Below, one piece after another: positions 107 through 4,961 of a stretch of DNA of 5,669 bases. A program made the position numbers and the translations under genes. Source of the DNA: a virus. Lineage: Duplodnaviria > Heunggongvirae > Uroviricota > Caudoviricetes. Under the pieces are notes generated by a model. The model saw only the letters and a program-made list of their open reading frames with translations, had not been told where the DNA came from and did no database searches. The stretch lies in IMG/VR virus record IMGVR_UViG_3300029253_000142. The stretch is one strand, 5' to 3'. Position 1 is the first letter of the stretch; each line of letters opens with the position of its first letter.

Positions 107-340
107 GTGAGTACATCGGCTACCATTCTCGACATGTGCTGTGGCAGTCGCATGCTCTGGTTCGATAAGAATGACGAATGGTCGATATTTAGCGATATCA
201 GGAAAGAGGAACATTCGCTATGTGATGGACGTCACCCGATTATTAATCCCGACATTATAGCTGATTTTCGTGCGCTGCCGTGGTTGTCTGCTTTGCATCA
301 AAAGCAGACATTACCAGATTTAGACATCTGTTTCCGATAG
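107..340 (+). CDS. 77-aa hypothetical protein; N-terminus resembles a class I SAM-dependent methyltransferase fragment (possible remnant)
   Basis: GTG start at 107 is preceded by a strong SD (GGGAGG, 94-99). Residues ILDMCCGS resemble SAM-binding motif I (hhDxGCGxG) and [10 protein letters not shown] resembles the DAxxLPF motif of small-molecule methyltransferases. At 77 aa it is too short to be a complete methyltransferase fold. Confidence 0.45.
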
Positions 341-393
341 CCCGTTCTGATGCTACACTTTTTGCTATTTTCATGAACCTCATAAACACATTT

Positions 394-1059
394 ATGACTG
401 TTGCTGATTTCAAACGCCCCAAATTGGAGCTCCCAAACGGGGCAAAAAAACTATTACTGCACTCTTGCTGTGCTCCATGTTCCGGTGAAGTGATGGAGGC
501 GCTTCAGGCCTCGGGAATCGACTACACCATCTTTTTCTACAACCCGAACATTCATCCTCAGAAAGAGTATTTAATTCGTAAGGATGAGAATATTCGCTTT
601 GCTAAACAACACGGCGTGCCATTTATTGATGCTGATTACGACACAGACAACTGGTTTGAGCGAGCCAAAGGAATGGAATGGGAGCCTGAACGAGGGATCC
701 GTTGTACCATGTGTTTTGACATGCGTTTTGAGCGGACTGCGCTGTATGCCGCTGAAAATGGTTTCAGTGTGATCAGTAGCTCACTGGGCATTTCACGCTG
801 GAAAAATATGCAGCAGGTTAACGACTGTGGACGGCGAGCCGTCGCGTATTATCCGGGCATGGTGTACTGGGATTATAACTGGCGAAAGCAGGGCGGCTCT
901 TCCCGCATGATTGAAATCAGCAAGCGCGAACAATTCTATCAGCAGGAATATTGTGGCTGCGTGTATTCACTGCGCGATACCAATCTACACCGCAAATCTC
1001 AGGGACGCCCTCTAATCAAAATTGGTCAACTCCACTACGGTAAAGAAGGCCAGGAATGA
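394..1059 (+). CDS. queH: QueH-like epoxyqueuosine reductase homolog (DUF208 family)
   Basis: Long ORF with CCAPC (466-480), CTMC and CGC cysteine motifs, consistent with my recollection of the QueH/DUF208 family. Start is uncertain: ATG 394 is preferred, ATG 373 and the ORF-track start 280 are alternatives, and none has a clear SD. Stop is TGA 1057-1059. Confidence 0.75.
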
Positions 1060-1173: not shown

Positions 1174-1467
1174 TCTTGTTGAAATTAGAGGAAATCTTGC
1201 AGCCATGATATGGCTTAAAATAACGTTTGATTATTTTACCTGCTGTTTGTCCCTGGTTTAAAGTCGGTTGTCTGATTTGATTACGCGCAACTGACGCTTA
1301 CGTATTGAAGTAACGAGCACGAAGACACATATTTATCAGTGCCTGTATACGTCAAGAGCAGGAGATTTATGTGCTGGTTCTCAAATGCACGCTGGCTATT
1401 GTGGCTGTAATGGCAATTTATTGTCTTGTTATTGTTCTTATGGATCACCTTTCTGATTGATTTCATA

Positions 1468-1496
1468 TTGGAGAGGTAACGGTAGTTAAGTAGAAT
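1468..1496 (+). promoter_or_regulatory. Candidate sigma70 promoter for the hok mRNA (TTGGAG-N17-TAGAAT)
   Basis: -35 TTGGAG at 1468-1473, 17-bp spacer, -10 TAGAAT at 1491-1496. The predicted transcription start near 1503 coincides with the 5' segment that is complementary to the 3' end of the hok transcript. Confidence 0.4.
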
Positions 1497-1559
1497 GGCT
1501 GCGGGTGCTTGAGGCTATCTGCCTCGGGCATGAACACCAACGGCAGATAGAGAAAAGCC

Positions 1560-1625
1560 CCAGTTAACATTACGCGTCCTGCAAGACGCTTAACATTAAT
1601 CTGAGGCCAATTTCATGCTAGACAC
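1560..1625 (-). ncRNA. Candidate Sok-like antisense RNA covering the mok translation-initiation region
   Basis: By analogy with hok/sok loci, Sok is encoded antisense to the mok SD/start. A weak minus-strand promoter (TTGCCT, plus 1658-1653; TAACCT, plus 1635-1630) would start transcription near 1623. A hairpin GCGTC/GACGC (1574-1589) is flanked by a 9-bp direct repeat TTAACATTA. Boundaries are guesses. Confidence 0.2.
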
Positions 1626-1827
1626 ATGTAGGTTAGCCTCTTACGTGCCGAAAGGCAAGGAGAAGCAGGCTATGAAGCAGCAAAAGGCGATGTTAATCGC
1701 CCTGATCGTCATCTGTTTAACCGTCATAGTGACGGCACTGGTAACGAGGAAAGACCTCTGCGAGGTACGAATCCGAACCGGCCAGACGGAGGTCGCTGTC
1801 TTCACAGCTTACGAACCTGAGGAGTAA
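1615..1827 (+). CDS. mok-like reading frame (in-frame upstream extension of hok)
   Basis: ATG at 1615 with GAGG at 1603-1606 upstream; 70 codons in the same frame and with the same stop as hok, matching the Mok/Hok arrangement as I recall it from annotated chromosomal hok loci. Confidence 0.4.
   Translation: MLDTCRLASYVPKGKEKQAMKQQKAMLIALIVICLTVIVTALVTRKDLCEVRIRTGQTEVAVFTAYEPEE
1672..1827 (+). CDS. hokD: Hok/Gef-family type I toxin, 51 aa, matching HokD (RelF) as recalled
   Basis: Translation MKQQKAMLIALIVICLTVIVTALVTRKDLCEVRIRTGQTEVAVFTAYEPEE has a single transmembrane helix and the Hok signature, and matches my recollection of HokD/RelF. Strong SD AAGGAG (1656-1661) precedes ATG 1672; stop TAA at 1825-1827. 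Confidence 0.9.
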   Translation: MKQQKAMLIALIVICLTVIVTALVTRKDLCEVRIRTGQTEVAVFTAYEPEE

Positions 1828-1834
1828 GAGACCC

Positions 1835-1856
1835 GGCGAGGGAGAAATCCCTCGCC
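1835..1856 (+). promoter_or_regulatory. Perfect 9-bp stem with GAAA tetraloop in the hok 3' UTR
   Basis: GGCGAGGGA (1835-1843), GAAA loop, TCCCTCGCC (1848-1856), immediately after the hok stop codon. Plausibly part of the folded hok mRNA 3' region. Confidence 0.45.
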
Positions 1857-1895
1857 ACCTCTGATGTGGCAGGCATTCTCAACGCACCCGCACTT

Positions 1896-1926
1896 AACCC
1901 GCTTCGGCGGGTTTTTGTTTTTATTT
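1896..1926 (+). terminator. Rho-independent terminator of the hok transcript
   Basis: Stem CCCGC (1898-1902) / GCGGG (1907-1911) with TTCG loop, followed by TTTTTGTTTTTATTTT. Confidence 0.7.
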
Positions 1927-2641: not shown

Positions 2642-3691
2642 GTGCGGGTATTACTTCGACCTGTTCTGGTACCGGAGCTCGGGCTGGTGATCGTTAAGCC
2701 GGGCCGTGAATCCATGCCGGTATTCCACAATACCCGGGTACTGGTGGAGCCGGAACCGAAAAGCATGCGTAATCTGTCGTCCGGGGTCGTTCCTGCCGTT
2801 CGCCAGCCGCTGGCGGAGGATAAATCATTACTGCCATTTTTCAGCGACGAACGAGTGATTCGTGCTGCTGGTGGTGCTGGCGCATTGTCTGACTGGTTAC
2901 TGCGCCATGTTAAATCCTGCCAGTGGCCACACGGCGATTATCACCACAGTGAAACCGTCATTCACCGTTATGGTACCGGCGCAATGGTGTTGTGCTGGCA
3001 CTGCGACAACCAGCTGCGTGACCAGACATCCGAATCACTCGGGCAACTTGCTCATCAAAACCTGTCTGCATGGATGATTGACGTCATCGGTCACGCAATA
3101 AGCGGTACGCAGGAGCGTGAATTATCTCTGGCTGAATTATCCTGGTGGGCGGTCCGCAATCAGGTGGCGGACGCGCTACCGGAAGCGGTATTACGTCGTT
3201 CGCTGGGGTTGCGTGCGGAAAAAATCCGCTCAATGTACCGTGAAAGCGACATCGTACCGGGAGAGCAGACCGCCACCAGCATACTGAAACAGCGCACAAA
3301 AAATCTTGCGCCGCTGCCTCACGCCCACCAGCAACAGAACCCACCACAGGAAAAGGCGGTGGTCAGTATCGCCGTTGATCCGGAGTCTCCGGAATCTTTC
3401 ATGAAGCGGCCTAAACGTCGCCGTTGGGTAAATGAGAAATACAAACGCTGGGTAAAGACACAGCCGTGCGTGTGTTGTGGTAAGCCAGCCGACGATCCCC
3501 ATCACCTGATTGGTCATGGTCAGGGAGGTATGGGGACAAAAGCCCACGATATTTTCACGCTACCGCTGTGTCGGGAGCATCACAACGAGCTTCATGCGGA
3601 TCCGCTGGCGTTCGAAGAAAAGCATGGTTCTCAGGTTGATTTAATTTTTCGTTTTCTTGATCACGCCTTTGCAACTGGCGTGCTTGGGTAA
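2642..3691 (+). CDS. ydfU: YdfU-like DUF968 protein (349 aa) with Cys/His-rich, HNH/zinc-finger-like motifs
   Basis: GTG 2642 preceded by SD GGAGG (2633-2637). The C-terminus carries CVCCGKP...HH...CREHHNELH and an internal CQWPHGDYHH...CWHCDNQ cluster. Size and position upstream of Q match Qin-prophage YdfU. Confidence 0.8.
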   Translation: MRVLLRPVLVPELGLVIVKPGRESMPVFHNTRVLVEPEPKSMRNLSSGVVPAVRQPLAEDKSLLPFFSDERVIRAAGGAGALSDWLLRHVKSCQWPHGDYHHSETVIHRYGTGAMVLCWHCDNQLRDQTSESLGQLAHQNLSAWMIDVIGHAISGTQERELSLAELSWWAVRNQVADALPEAVLRRSLGLRAEKIRSMYRESDIVPGEQTATSILKQRTKNLAPLPHAHQQQNPPQEKAVVSIAVDPESPESFMKRPKRRRWVNEKYKRWVKTQPCVCCGKPADDPHHLIGHGQGGMGTKAHDIFTLPLCREHHNELHADPLAFEEKHGSQVDLIFRFLDHAFATGVLG

Positions 3692-3703: not shown

Positions 3704-4063
3704 ATGCTCATAGATTTGGTTTTACCTTACCCGCCGACGGTGAACACTTACTGGCGACGCCGTGGCAGCACATATTTTATCTCGGAGGAGGGAAAGCGTT
3801 ATCGCCGGGCTGTGGCGCTTATTGTTCGCCAGCAGCGGCTGAAATTAAGCCTGTCCGGAAGGCTGGTAATCAGGATTATTGCAGAGCCACCGGATAATCG
3901 CCGTCGCGACCTGGACAATATCCTGAAAGCGCCGCTGGATGCGCTGACGCATGCAGGACTGTTAATGGACGATGAGCAGTTTGATGAAATCAATATTGTA
4001 CGTGGCCAGCCAGTATCAGGTGGACGGCTGGAGATAAAAATTACAGAGGTGGGGTGTGCATGA
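3704..4063 (+). CDS. rusA: RusA-family crossover junction endodeoxyribonuclease (Holliday junction resolvase)
   Basis: 119 aa with the conserved RusA pattern (PDNRRRDLDN, LDAL, GGRLE near the C-terminus), closely paralleling E. coli RusA as I recall it. SD AAGAGGT (3692-3698) precedes ATG 3704. Confidence 0.9.
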   Translation: MLIDLVLPYPPTVNTYWRRRGSTYFISEEGKRYRRAVALIVRQQRLKLSLSGRLVIRIIAEPPDNRRRDLDNILKAPLDALTHAGLLMDDEQFDEINIVRGQPVSGGRLEIKITEVGCA

Positions 4064-4749
4064 ATAACCAGTATTTACAGTTTGTTCGTGAGCAACTCAT
4101 GATTGCCACAGCGGATCTCAGTGGGCCGACAAAAGGCCAGCTGGAAGCCTGGCAGGAAAATGCCCTGTTCGATACAGGGCGTTACAGACGCAAAAAAATT
4201 CGTTACCGCGATGAGGTAACCGGAAAAATGATCACGCGGGATAACCCACCGATCCCGGGTAAACAATCACTGGCGAAAGGCTCATCAATTGCGCTGGTCA
4301 GTCCGGTTGAGTTTGCAACATCATCGTGGCGGCGTGCCGTTCTGGAACTGGAAGAACATCAGAAGGCGTGGTTGTTGTGGTGTTATGGCGGAAACATTTG
4401 CTGGGAGCATCAGATCGCGATAACGCAGTGGGTGTGGAGTGAATTTAAAACTCAGTCCGGCTCCAGAAAAATTGCAGTGAAAACGCTGGAGCGTGTGAAG
4501 AAGTTGATCTGGCTGGCGGCACAGGATGTCAGAGGATGGGTTACCGGGTGTGAGGTCTACCAGAGACAGGAGCTTGCCAGACTGTGTGGAGTTAAGCCTG
4601 ATAACTGGAGCCATAATTATGCGAACTACTGGCGTGAGATGTGCGATATTTTTAAGCGCCTCGATAGAGAATCCTTGATTTGCTCCGTGAAAATAAGAGC
4701 GCAACAAAAAGCGACCTTTTCACGACGAGATATTGCAAAAGTCAATTAA
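4060..4749 (+). CDS. Putative late-gene antitermination protein Q (QuuQ/YdfT-like)
   Basis: 229-aa ORF whose ATG (4060) overlaps the rusA stop (ATGA), with SD GAGGT at 4046-4050. It sits directly downstream of rusA/ydfU, where lambdoid phages carry Q, and is followed by promoter-like elements and an intrinsic terminator. The assignment is mainly positional; I do not recognise the Q fold from sequence. Confidence 0.55.
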   Translation: MNNQYLQFVREQLMIATADLSGPTKGQLEAWQENALFDTGRYRRKKIRYRDEVTGKMITRDNPPIPGKQSLAKGSSIALVSPVEFATSSWRRAVLELEEHQKAWLLWCYGGNICWEHQIAITQWVWSEFKTQSGSRKIAVKTLERVKKLIWLAAQDVRGWVTGCEVYQRQELARLCGVKPDNWSHNYANYWREMCDIFKRLDRESLICSVKIRAQQKATFSRRDIAKVN

Positions 4750-4761
4750 ATCGCGTATGTT
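4733..4761 (+). promoter_or_regulatory. Candidate late promoter (PR'-like, TTGCAA-N17-TATGTT) overlapping the Q stop codon, with -10-like repeats downstream
   Basis: -35 TTGCAA at 4733-4738, 17-bp spacer, -10 TATGTT at 4756-4761. -10-like elements TATAAA (4765-4770) and GATATT (4774-4779) fall in the predicted early transcribed region, reminiscent of sigma-dependent pause elements at qut sites. Not validated. Confidence 0.25.
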
Positions 4762-4810
4762 TCGTATAAATCTGATATTTTGCCGATTTTGTACGTGATG
4801 GCAAAGTAAG

Positions 4811-4839
4811 AAAAAACCACCGCCAGGTGGTTTTTTTTA
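4811..4839 (+). terminator. Rho-independent terminator after Q (possible tR'), A-tract/T-tract flanked
   Basis: AAAAAA, stem CCACC (4817-4821) / GGTGG (4826-4830) with GCCA loop, then TTTTTTTT (4831-4838). The symmetric A/T flanks mean it could terminate in both directions. Confidence 0.7.
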
Positions 4840-4961
4840 TGTCCGAAAATCGCGTCAGTACAGTAAATGCGCTGGTGGCGGTGAATACCTGTCTTTCAGC
4901 TTGCTGGCTTTTTCGACAAGAGTTATTGGTGTGTCACGTTAACCGGAAAAGGGAAAAAGAC

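What the first reader, a model, noticed from the sequence alone, without database searches (positions are those of the whole stretch)
1468..1926. Apparently intact hok/mok/sok locus with long-range 5'-3' complementarity
Beyond the hokD-like toxin ORF, the window has the features of a full hok-family transcript. There is a promoter (TTGGAG-N17-TAGAAT) giving a start near 1503, a 70-codon in-frame mok extension, and an intrinsic terminator about 420 nt downstream. The 5' segment GCGGGTGC-TTGAG (1501-1513) is complementary, with one bulge, to 1877-1891 near the 3' end, which is the fold-back pairing that keeps full-length hok mRNA inactive. In K-12 hokD sits downstream of relBE; here no relBE lies upstream, so this copy may retain the ancestral regulated architecture.
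Basis: partly seen in the sequence, partly recalled or inferred. Interest (0 to 1): 0.5.

Follow-up and report, generated by a model that had tools for sequence, protein, structure and literature searches.

The report
Intact prophage hokD/mok/sok toxin–antitoxin locus

Summary
Window 1468-1926 carries a full hok-family type I toxin-antitoxin cassette.

- **Parts present:** promoter, a roughly 415-nt mRNA starting near 1503, a 70-codon mok in frame with a 51-codon hok, a convergent antisense Sok gene (about 1623 to 1549, minus strand), and an intrinsic terminator (1896-1913).
- **Family match:** the leader matches Rfam RF01794 at 115 bits (threshold 59).
- **Folding:** it reproduces the three canonical hok mRNA states. 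The nascent RNA forms a 5' hairpin. The full-length RNA forms tac/fbi pairing 1503-1514 with 1877-1889 (pair probabilities 0.97-1.0; 0.58 for the terminal G-U) and buries the mok Shine-Dalgarno. Several, but not all, 3'-shortened RNAs form tac/ucb pairing.
- **Conservation:** the full-length structure is 97.8% paired across 63 distinct relatives, with 12 compensatory pairs.
- **Toxin identity:** the toxin is identical to K-12 HokD. K-12 homology starts only at about 1658, because relBE replaces the leader there. The "ancestral architecture" idea is therefore right.

None of this is new. The same cassette lies in 3819 of 5426 complete E. coli genomes. It is annotated as hokW/mokW/sokW in phage 933W (93.8% identical), it was shown to work in Sp5, and the relBE truncation of an ancestral 70-codon hokD is published. 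Verdict: already known, low interest.

The parts
1468..1496 (+). hok mRNA promoter: -35 TTGGAG 1468-1473, 17-nt spacer, -10 TAGAAT 1491-1496
   Evidence: Read directly. One search reports the equivalent TGGAGA-16-TAGAAT. The -10 is conserved in 933W. Function is inferred.
1503..1917 (+). Full-length hok mRNA, about 415 nt. The 5' end is inferred at 1503 and the 3' end in the T-run after the terminator.
   Evidence: Rfam RF01794 model position 1 aligns to 1503, at 115.3 bits against a threshold of 59. Terminator. Fold -171 kcal/mol, z = -7.25.
1503..1514 (+). tac (translational activator element), GGGUGCUUGAGG
   Evidence: It pairs with fbi in the full-length fold, with ucb in several shortened forms, and with 1522-1531 in the nascent RNA. 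It is almost invariant in 63 relatives.
1522..1531 (+). Partner of tac in the metastable 5' hairpin of the nascent transcript
   Evidence: The fold of 1503-1535 pairs 1505-1514 with 1522-1531. The model is described in PMC9841398.
1552..1561 (+). ucb / anti-Shine-Dalgarno, GAAAAGCCCC
   Evidence: In the full-length RNA it pairs with 1603-1607 and 1611-1614, with probability 0.86-0.99. In several shortened forms it pairs with tac 1503-1510. This matches the first stem of the Rfam consensus.
1549..1623 (-). Sok antisense RNA gene: start near 1623, long hairpin (1558-1608), CUUUUCUCU tail
   Evidence: The sokW annotation of 933W maps to 1553-1623. Fold -30.5 kcal/mol, z = -6.1. Transcription is inferred.
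1630..1658 (-). Sok promoter: -35 TTGCCT (1658-1653), 17-nt spacer, -10 TAACCT (1635-1630)
   Evidence: Read directly. The region is identical to the corresponding region of 933W hokW/sokW. Mutating the sokW promoter abolished antitoxin activity in Sp5 (PMC8621323). The consensus scan did not detect it, because the -10 is weak.
1603..1606 (+). mok Shine-Dalgarno, GAGG, 8 nt before the mok ATG
   Evidence: Read directly. It is sequestered by ucb in the full-length fold and paired with dcb in the open forms. It is invariant in relatives.
1615..1827 (+). mok reading frame, 70 codons, same frame and stop as hok
   Evidence: It has the same layout as mokW/hokW of 933W.
1635..1640 (+). dcb (downstream complementary box), AGCCUC; overlaps the Sok -10 on the other strand
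   Evidence: It pairs with 1603-1607 in the open (truncated-form) folds and in the Rfam consensus hairpin. The helix is 92% paired in relatives.
1672..1827 (+). hok toxin gene (HokD), 51 codons, Shine-Dalgarno AGGAG 1658-1662
   Evidence: Pfam PF01848, 3e-23. A 100%-identical locus is annotated hokD with protein WP_000813254.1, the same accession as K-12 HokD. The start region 1665-1681 is paired with 1795-1812.
1835..1856 (+). G+C-rich 3' stem-loop, the likely protective end of the processed mRNA
   Evidence: A 9-bp helix in all folds, with compensatory changes in relatives (helix 18). Its role is inferred from the R1 model (PMC9841398).
1877..1889 (+). fbi (fold-back inhibition element), UCUCAACGCACCC
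   Evidence: It pairs with tac. The helix is 99.6% paired in 63 relatives. Between-clade compensatory changes appear.
1896..1926 (+). Intrinsic terminator: stem 1896-1913 plus T-run
   Evidence: It is shared with K-12 hokD.

Best explanation
Window 1468-1926 is an intact hok/mok/sok type I toxin-antitoxin cassette of the hokD/hokW clade. It sits in the nin region of a Qin-like lambdoid prophage, between queH and rem.

Mechanism, with shown and inferred steps marked:

1. A sigma-70 promoter gives a roughly 415-nt mRNA starting near 1503 (inferred).
2. While the RNA is being made, its 5' end is held in a local hairpin, 1505-1514 with 1522-1531 (in silico).
3. Once the 3' end is transcribed, the 5' tac element pairs with fbi (1877-1889). 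The ucb box (1552-1561) then covers the mok Shine-Dalgarno. The full-length RNA should therefore be neither translatable nor open to Sok (in silico, conserved in relatives).
4. Slow 3' trimming removes fbi. Tac can then switch to ucb, and the mok Shine-Dalgarno moves into a hairpin with dcb whose loop is the Sok target (in silico for the refolding, which appears at several but not all tested end points; the trimming step is taken from plasmid R1).
5. Ribosomes translating mok open the structured hok start, and the membrane toxin HokD is made (inferred from the family).
6. A short, unstable antisense Sok RNA is made from the opposite strand (about 1623 to 1549). It pairs with the mok start region and blocks translation, leading to duplex cleavage (inferred; shown for sokW).

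The result is killing or lysis help when Sok supply stops, for example on prophage loss or induction.
For: - **Family match:** Rfam hok-leader model at 115.3 bits against a threshold of 59, spanning 1503-1677 on the + strand. Pfam HOK_GEF 3e-23.
- **Folding states:** the closed full-length state and the nascent hairpin are recovered directly from sequence, and the open state appears at four of the shortened end points tested. tac/fbi pair probabilities are 0.97-1.0, apart from 0.58 for the terminal G-U.
- **Conservation:** across 63 distinct relatives, 97.8% of cells are paired in the full-length structure, against 33-41% when partners are slid. Twelve pairs carry compensatory changes, against 2.5 +/- 1.1 in shuffles.
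- **Open-state helices:** 99.5% and 92.2% paired.
- **tac/fbi across clades:** the pairing is kept through different sequences. R1-type is GGCGCUUGAGGC with GCCUGAAGCGCC. The Vibrio plasmid has GGGUGCUCUUGG with CCAACGAGCACCC. The Aeromonas plasmid has no bulge.
- **Sok:** the hairpin plus U-rich tail has z = -6.1. The Sok promoter is identical to that of sokW. 933W annotates mokW, hokW and sokW at the homologous positions, at 93.8% identity.
- **Function in close relatives:** hokW-sokW was shown to be a working type I system (PMC8621323). The HokD peptide was toxic when expressed (bioRxiv 10.1101/2025.08.07.668861).
- **Canonical model:** PMC9841398.
Against: - No expression data exist for this copy. 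The promoter match is not significant on its own.
- The Sok -10 (TAACCT) is weak, and the consensus scan missed it.
- Minimum-free-energy folds of 3'-shortened RNAs alternate between open and closed leader states depending on the exact end. The switch is therefore near iso-energetic in silico, not clean.
- Within the hokD/W clade, the tac/fbi helix shows conservation but no compensatory change.
- Chromosomal hok loci tested in the past did not mediate post-segregational killing (Pedersen and Gerdes 1999, as summarised).
- The window has a rare U at 1877, which weakens the last tac/fbi pair to G-U (61 of 63 relatives have C).
Confidence: 0.9

Rival explanations
1. The cassette is structurally intact but is a silent relic. 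Its sequence elements are kept by recent spread of the prophage module, and it no longer kills or is no longer regulated in its host.
For: [quoted passage not shown] The Sok -10 and the hok -35 are weak matches. Close relatives differ by few substitutions, so conservation partly reflects recency.
Against: All regulatory boxes are intact. tac, ucb, the mok Shine-Dalgarno and the hok start are nearly invariant, while neighbouring segments vary. Substitutions in stems are wobble or compensatory. The 93.8%-identical hokW-sokW is functional (PMC8621323). The HokD coding sequence is toxic.
Confidence: 0.08
2. The 5'-3' complementarity is a chance match between two G+C-rich segments and has no regulatory role.
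For: Duplex energy of the 14-nt 5' end with the real 3' region (-19.8 kcal/mol) is matched by 64 of 2000 shuffled 3' regions. Comparable duplexes exist elsewhere in the window.
Against: The partner lies just upstream of the terminator at transcript positions 352-400 in eight of ten loci spanning five lineages. The pairing survives through different sequences in R1-type, Vibrio and Aeromonas loci. Pair probabilities are about 1 in the ensemble. The helix is 99.6% paired in 63 relatives, and the only common changes are G-C to G-U or sit in the bulge.
Confidence: 0.01
3. In this nin-region position, hok is expressed mainly as part of read-through early prophage transcripts (from pR, in the same direction as rem, rusA and Q) and not from its own promoter. 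The 5'-end-dependent switch would then be bypassed on induction.
For: hok has the same orientation as all flanking prophage genes from queH to Q. Sp5 HokW production depends on RecA and prophage induction, and the trigger is unexplained (PMC8621323).
Against: The cassette carries its own promoter-like site and terminator. It moves as a unit with boundaries near 1438/1484 and 1899/1922 into quite different contexts: the 933W right end, P1-like plasmids and paa-adjacent sites. That argues for autonomous expression. In K-12, hokD is read from the relBE promoter only because the leader was lost.
Confidence: 0.1

Closest known systems
hokW / mokW / sokW of Shiga-toxin phage 933W and Sakai prophage Sp5
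   Same: 93.8% DNA identity over window 1484-1899. It shares the tac, ucb, mok Shine-Dalgarno, dcb and Sok promoter, the in-frame 70-codon mok and the 51-codon hok. It was shown experimentally to be a type I toxin-antitoxin pair that helps phage release (PMC8621323).
   Different: - **Genomic position:** right end of 933W near attR, against the nin region between queH and rem here.
- **Flanks:** the -35 region and the sequence after fbi differ, and 933W lacks the 1896-1913 terminator.
- **Sok 5' tail:** the Sok 5'-tail / mok-start segment is a different allele, CTCAATCCATGCTGAAC against CCAATTTCATGCTAGAC.
- **Toxin C-terminus:** FVDYESEK against FTAYEPEE.
hokD (relF) of the relBEF operon, Qin prophage, E. 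coli K-12
   Same: The Hok protein is identical (WP_000813254.1). DNA is 99% identical from window ~1658 through fbi, the terminator and on into rem. Downstream synteny rem-hyp-DUF968-Q is shared.
   Different: K-12 lacks everything upstream of ~1658: the promoter, tac, ucb, the Sok gene and the mok start. relB-relE and a spacer sit there instead, and hokD is co-transcribed with relBE. The K-12 junction occurs in 1165 of 5426 genomes. The leader-bearing form occurs in 3819.
hok/sok (parB) of plasmid R1 and related IncF plasmids
   Same: Same regulatory logic and element order: tac, metastable hairpin, ucb, Sok target, mok, hok, 3' stem-loop, fbi, terminator. The same Rfam leader family hits both (model in PMC9841398).
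   Different: Hok is only about 43-45% identical. tac/fbi use GGCGC with GCGCC instead of GGGUGC with GCACCC. In R1-type plasmid loci mok is in a different frame and ends inside hok (Mok 458-610 against Hok 555-674 in L011). Here mok is an in-frame extension. The R1 locus is plasmid-borne, not prophage-borne.

Membership tests
[quoted passage not shown] | Small hydrophobic Hok/Gef toxin reading frame | tested here: met
   Pfam PF01848 at 3e-23, 81.6 bits against a cut-off of 22. NCBIfam Hok family hit at 1.2e-12, but 47.5 bits is below the curated cut-off of 73; this was scored on the 70-aa Mok form.
[quoted passage not shown] | Overlapping upstream mok frame with its own Shine-Dalgarno | tested here: met
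   ATG 1615 with GAGG 1603-1606, 70 codons ending at the hok stop. The layout is the same as annotated mokW.
[quoted passage not shown] | hok mRNA leader with the family's conserved sequence and structure | tested here: met
   Rfam RF01794 at 115.3 bits against a gathering score of 59, full model 1-157, window 1503-1677, + strand.
[quoted passage not shown] | Long-range tac/fbi pairing of the 5' end with a box just upstream of the terminator | tested here: met
   A 12-pair helix 1503-1514/1877-1889 in the minimum-free-energy fold, with probabilities 0.97-1.0 except 0.58 for the terminal G-U. It is 99.6% paired in 63 relatives, with between-clade compensatory changes.
[quoted passage not shown] | Alternative pairings: ucb with the mok Shine-Dalgarno (closed), tac with ucb plus Shine-Dalgarno with dcb (open), and a metastable 5' hairpin | tested here: met
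   All three states appear as minimum-free-energy folds of full-length, shortened and nascent RNAs, but shortened RNAs alternate between open and closed depending on the exact end. Open-state helices are 99.5% and 92.2% paired in relatives. This is in silico only.
[quoted passage not shown] | Cis-encoded antisense Sok RNA with its own promoter and terminator, overlapping the mok start | tested here: met
   TTGCCT-17-TAACCT on the minus strand, start near 1623, hairpin plus U-rich tail with z = -6.1. It coincides with annotated sokW, and its promoter is identical to that of sokW. Only the sequence features were tested, not transcription.
[quoted passage not shown] | 3' exonucleolytic processing that activates the mRNA, and RNase III cleavage of the Sok-mRNA duplex | not testable with these tools
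   This needs a rifampicin chase with Northern blots or RACE. It is known for R1 (PMC9841398) and only suggested for hokW (PMC8621323).
[quoted passage not shown] | Toxicity of Hok and neutralisation by Sok | not testable with these tools
   Shown for the 93.8%-identical hokW-sokW (PMC8621323). The HokD peptide was reported toxic. Neither was tested for this copy.
hokD (relF) orthologue group | Same protein and same prophage neighbourhood as K-12 hokD | tested here: met
   An identical locus is annotated hokD with WP_000813254.1, the K-12 accession. rem, DUF968 and Q lie downstream in both.
relBEF operon arrangement (K-12 type) | relB-relE immediately upstream of a leaderless hokD | tested here: not met
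   No relBE is present in the window. queH and 600 nt of non-coding DNA, including the hok leader, lie upstream. K-12 homology starts at about 1658.

The most novel reading that the evidence does not exclude
The only part of the cassette that varies strongly among close relatives is the 17-nt segment 1607-1623, where the 5' tail of Sok meets the mok start. It falls into two main alleles plus rarer ones, and one copy has a replaced Sok hairpin body. This could mean that prophage hok/sok cassettes have split into Sok-specificity types, so that several co-resident copies (median 2 and up to 9 matching places per genome) are each controlled only by their own antitoxin. That would resemble incompatibility groups. 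Separately, the co-orientation with the early prophage operon here could couple Hok release to induction through read-through transcription that silences the convergent Sok promoter.
Probability: 0.2. Interest if true: 0.35.

Novelty: already known. Interest (0 to 1): 0.1.

Why it matters
It matters little as a discovery. The hok/sok mechanism is a textbook case of RNA-controlled killing, and this clade is annotated in phage 933W. It has been tested in Sp5, it is found in most complete E. coli genomes, and the K-12 truncation by relBE has been described. The result is useful mainly as a clean worked example. A full-length reference for hokD shows which regulatory parts K-12 lacks, which is relevant to anyone who interprets K-12 hokD/relF data as typical of the locus.

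Tried and rejected
- **Cross-clade alignment:** a MAFFT alignment of ten full transcripts from different clades misaligned the fbi boxes. No column-based covariation count across clades was possible, so I used per-locus duplex predictions instead.
- **Cross-matrix of 5' ends against 3' regions:** it separates R1-type and Vibrio 5' ends from foreign 3' regions by 5-10 kcal/mol. It does not separate the hokD-type 5' end, which also finds G+C-rich partners in foreign 3' regions. Duplex energy alone is therefore weak evidence.
- **Shuffle test of the window's own duplex:** 64 of 2000 shuffles were as good.
- **Consensus promoter scan:** not informative on its own, and it missed the Sok promoter.
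- **Folds of 3'-shortened RNAs:** they flip between open and closed leaders with small changes of end point. No single 'processed' end could be inferred.
- **Sub-threshold Rfam hits** (isrK, rsmX, ceN48, Fungi_SRP over the locus): rejected as chance matches to hairpins.
- **Small hydrophobic frame at 1371-1460:** no family match and no annotation. Left open.
- **Whole-window searches:** no record covered 80% or more of the 5669 bases. The exact source genome was not identified, and the window is a mosaic of common prophage modules.

Full report
**What is in the window.** The 5669 bases are a piece of a lambda-like prophage, with all genes on the + strand:

| Feature | Coordinates |
|---|---|
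| Methyltransferase remnant | 107-292 |
| queH | 394-1059 |
| hok locus | 1468-1926 |
| rem | 2044-2295 |
| Small unnamed gene | 2362-2640 |
| DUF968/ydfU-type gene | 2642-3691 |
| rusA | 3704-4063 |
| Q antiterminator | 4054-4749 |
| Start of a DNA methylase | 5310 onward |

The gene order after hok matches the Qin prophage of E. coli K-12. No record in the collections holds the whole window, so it is a mosaic of common modules.

**Checking the observation.** The hexamers TTGGAG (1468-1473) and TAGAAT (1491-1496) are 17 nt apart. The scan lists the equivalent TGGAGA-16-TAGAAT.
- Such matches are expected by chance at about 1.6 per kb here, so the hexamers alone prove nothing.
- The Rfam family RF01794 matches 1503-1677 on the + strand over its whole length, at 115.3 bits against a threshold of 59. 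Its first position falls on 1503, 7 nt after the -10.
- That family is named 'sok', but its consensus starts with the hok mRNA 5' end and finishes at the hok AUG. It therefore models the sense leader.
- The 70-codon frame 1615-1827 contains the 51-codon hok frame (1672-1827) in the same phase. It carries the Hok/Gef domain at 3e-23.
- An intrinsic terminator lies at 1896-1913.

**The long-range pairing.** Folding 1503-1920 gives -171.2 kcal/mol, z = -7.25 against 100 shuffles.
1503-1508 pairs with 1884-1889 and 1509-1514 pairs with 1877-1882, with C1883 bulged.
- In the Boltzmann ensemble, eleven of the twelve pairs have probability 0.97-1.00. The closing G1514-U1877 has 0.58.

**The rest of the switch.** Folding RNAs of increasing length reproduced the three states described for plasmid R1 (PMC9841398).
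- **Nascent:** up to 1535, the 5' end forms a local hairpin (1505-1514 with 1522-1531).
- **Full length:** at 1890 or longer, tac pairs with fbi. The box 1552-1561 (ucb) covers the mok Shine-Dalgarno GAGG 1603-1606, with pair probabilities 0.86-0.99.
- **Shortened:** RNAs ending at 1645, 1760, 1830 or 1870 pair tac with ucb (1503-1510 with 1555-1561). The Shine-Dalgarno then pairs with 1636-1640 (dcb).
- Other end points (1680, 1860, 1876) give the closed leader. The two states are therefore close in energy, and the exact processed end cannot be read from the sequence.
- The hok start region 1665-1681 is paired with 1795-1812 in all folds. This fits translation that depends on ribosomes arriving from mok; that last step is inference.

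**The antisense gene.** On the minus strand, TTGCCT (1658-1653) and TAACCT (1635-1630) are 17 nt apart.
- A start about 7 nt downstream falls at 1623. This is where the sokW annotation of phage 933W maps (933W locus 2937-3007, equal to window 1553-1623).
- The RNA from 1623 to about 1546 folds into a long hairpin followed by CUUUUCUCU (-30.5 kcal/mol, z = -6.1).
- The stretch 1624-1674, which holds this promoter, is identical in the window and in 933W.
- In Sp5, which carries hokW-sokW, mutating the sokW promoter unmasked toxicity. Supplying sokW in trans relieved it (PMC8621323).

**Comparative support.** A scan of viral contigs gave 80 close relatives. Together with four other loci, they yield 63 distinct transcripts.
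- On the window's full-length structure, 97.8% of sequence-by-pair cells are standard pairs. With partners slid by 1-3 columns the figure is 33-41%.
- Twelve pairs carry changes on both sides, against 2.5 +/- 1.1 in shuffles and 3-6 in the slid controls. One example is A-U to G-C at columns 15/47 in seven sequences.
- The structure was derived from one of these sequences, which favours it on percentage paired.
- The tac/fbi helix itself is 99.6% paired but has no compensatory change within this clade. Its common changes are G-C to G-U, or fall in the bulged base.
- Between clades the pairing is kept through different sequences. R1-type plasmid loci use GGCGCUUGAGGC with GCCUGAAGCGCC. A Vibrio plasmid uses GGGUGCUCUUGG with CCAACGAGCACCC. 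An Aeromonas plasmid has nine contiguous pairs without a bulge.
- In eight of the ten loci the partner sits at transcript positions 352-400.
- The open-state helices are 99.5% and 92.2% paired.

**How common it is, and the K-12 comparison.** The 521 bases 1440-1960 occur at 80% or more coverage in 3819 of 5426 complete E. coli genomes, annotated hokD. They also occur in 110 phage records.
- K-12 strains match only query positions 219-521, that is window 1658 onward.
- The alignment shows relE and a spacer in place of the promoter, tac, ucb, Sok gene and mok start.
- The K-12 relE-hokD junction is found in 1165 genomes.
- The K-12 sequence from relE to the hok start codon is nearly identical to a Citrobacter plasmid. 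There the same relB and relE proteins precede a different, R1-type hok. The two diverge right after ATGAA.
- The K-12 arrangement therefore looks like a recombinant, joined in the conserved Shine-Dalgarno/start segment.
- This agrees with published work. PMC6379469, citing Ramisetty and Santhosh 2016, states that the ancestral hokD frame of about 70 codons was reduced to 51 by integration of plasmid-derived relBE. In K-12, hokD is co-transcribed with relBE (PMC3598666).

**Verdict.** [quoted passage not shown] Transcription, 3' processing, RNase III cleavage and toxicity could not be tested here, and rest on the close relatives hokW-sokW and R1.
- It differs from the R1 prototype in having an in-frame mok, as in mokW, and in being prophage-borne.
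- It differs from hokW mainly in genomic position, flanks and the Sok 5'-tail allele.

Nothing here is new, so I rate it as already known, with low interest.

**Side observation.** Among the 63 relatives, the most variable segment by far is 1607-1623, where the Sok 5' tail meets the mok start. Its mean minor-allele fraction is 0.131 and it has two main alleles. By contrast tac, ucb, the mok Shine-Dalgarno and the hok start are almost invariant. This may reflect diversification of antitoxin specificity among co-resident copies. I did not test that.

Noticed in passing
window 1607-1623 (alignment A4 columns 107-124): The Sok 5'-tail / mok-start segment is the most variable part of the cassette among 63 close relatives. 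Its mean minor-allele fraction is 0.131 and 7 of 17 columns vary. There are two main alleles, CCAATTTCATGCTAGAC (window type, 38) and CTCAATCCATGCTGAAC (933W type, 16). tac, ucb, the mok Shine-Dalgarno and the hok start are nearly invariant. This may reflect Sok specificity types.
   Followed up: partly
L004:385-410 (E. coli UTAK-13, next to paa): This copy keeps tac, ucb, mok, hok, fbi and the terminator. The body of the Sok hairpin is replaced by a shorter, unrelated sequence. It still scores 103.9 bits with the Rfam leader model.
   Followed up: no
L003:2380-2520 and L015:354-525, against window 1640-1680: The K-12 relE 3' end plus spacer is nearly identical to a Citrobacter IncFIB plasmid. 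There the same RelB/RelE proteins precede a different (R1-type) hok. The sequences diverge just after the hok ATG. The relBE-hok junction therefore looks like a recombination in the conserved Shine-Dalgarno/start segment, consistent with PMC6379469.
   Followed up: partly
window 1877: The window has T where 61 of 63 relatives, and also K-12, have C. This turns the closing tac/fbi pair G1514-C into G-U, with pair probability 0.58. An E. coli EC931 locus is 100% identical, so this is a natural variant.
   Followed up: yes
window 1810-1813: The Tyr47 codon TAC followed by G forms the TACG motif. TadA edits this motif (Tyr to Cys) in K-12 hokC, hokD and hokE mRNAs (PMC5630033). The site lies in the helix 1665-1681/1795-1812 of the predicted fold.
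   Followed up: partly
window 1503-1677: Rfam RF01794 is named 'sok antitoxin' but matches the + (hok mRNA) strand. Its consensus runs from the hok 5' end to the hok AUG, so it models the sense leader and not the antisense RNA.
   Followed up: yes
window 1371-1460 (+): An unannotated 29-codon frame, GTG start, 6 nt after AGGAG 1360-1364, encodes a very hydrophobic peptide (MLVLKCTLAIVAVMAIYCLVIVLMDHLSD). It has no family match. The surrounding 1090-1437 is rare, at 68 of 5426 genomes with 80% or more coverage. The widely shared hok cassette starts near 1438.
   Followed up: partly
window 107-1059: A queH (epoxyqueuosine reductase) gene, Pfam 4.3e-65, sits in the prophage early region next to a truncated methyltransferase. 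Its role in a prophage was not explored.
   Followed up: no
window 4756-4840: Directly after the Q antiterminator gene there is a strong hairpin-plus-T-run terminator (AAAAAACCACCGCCAGGTGGTTTTTTTT). It draws sub-threshold Rfam hits (isrK, STnc370, Phe_leader). It looks like the short late-promoter leader RNA region of lambdoid phages.
   Followed up: no
L001:447-535 (phage 933W): An Rfam sRNA-Xcc1 match above threshold (69.1 bits against 53) lies about 2.4 kb upstream of hokW in 933W. It is unrelated to the window.
   Followed up: no
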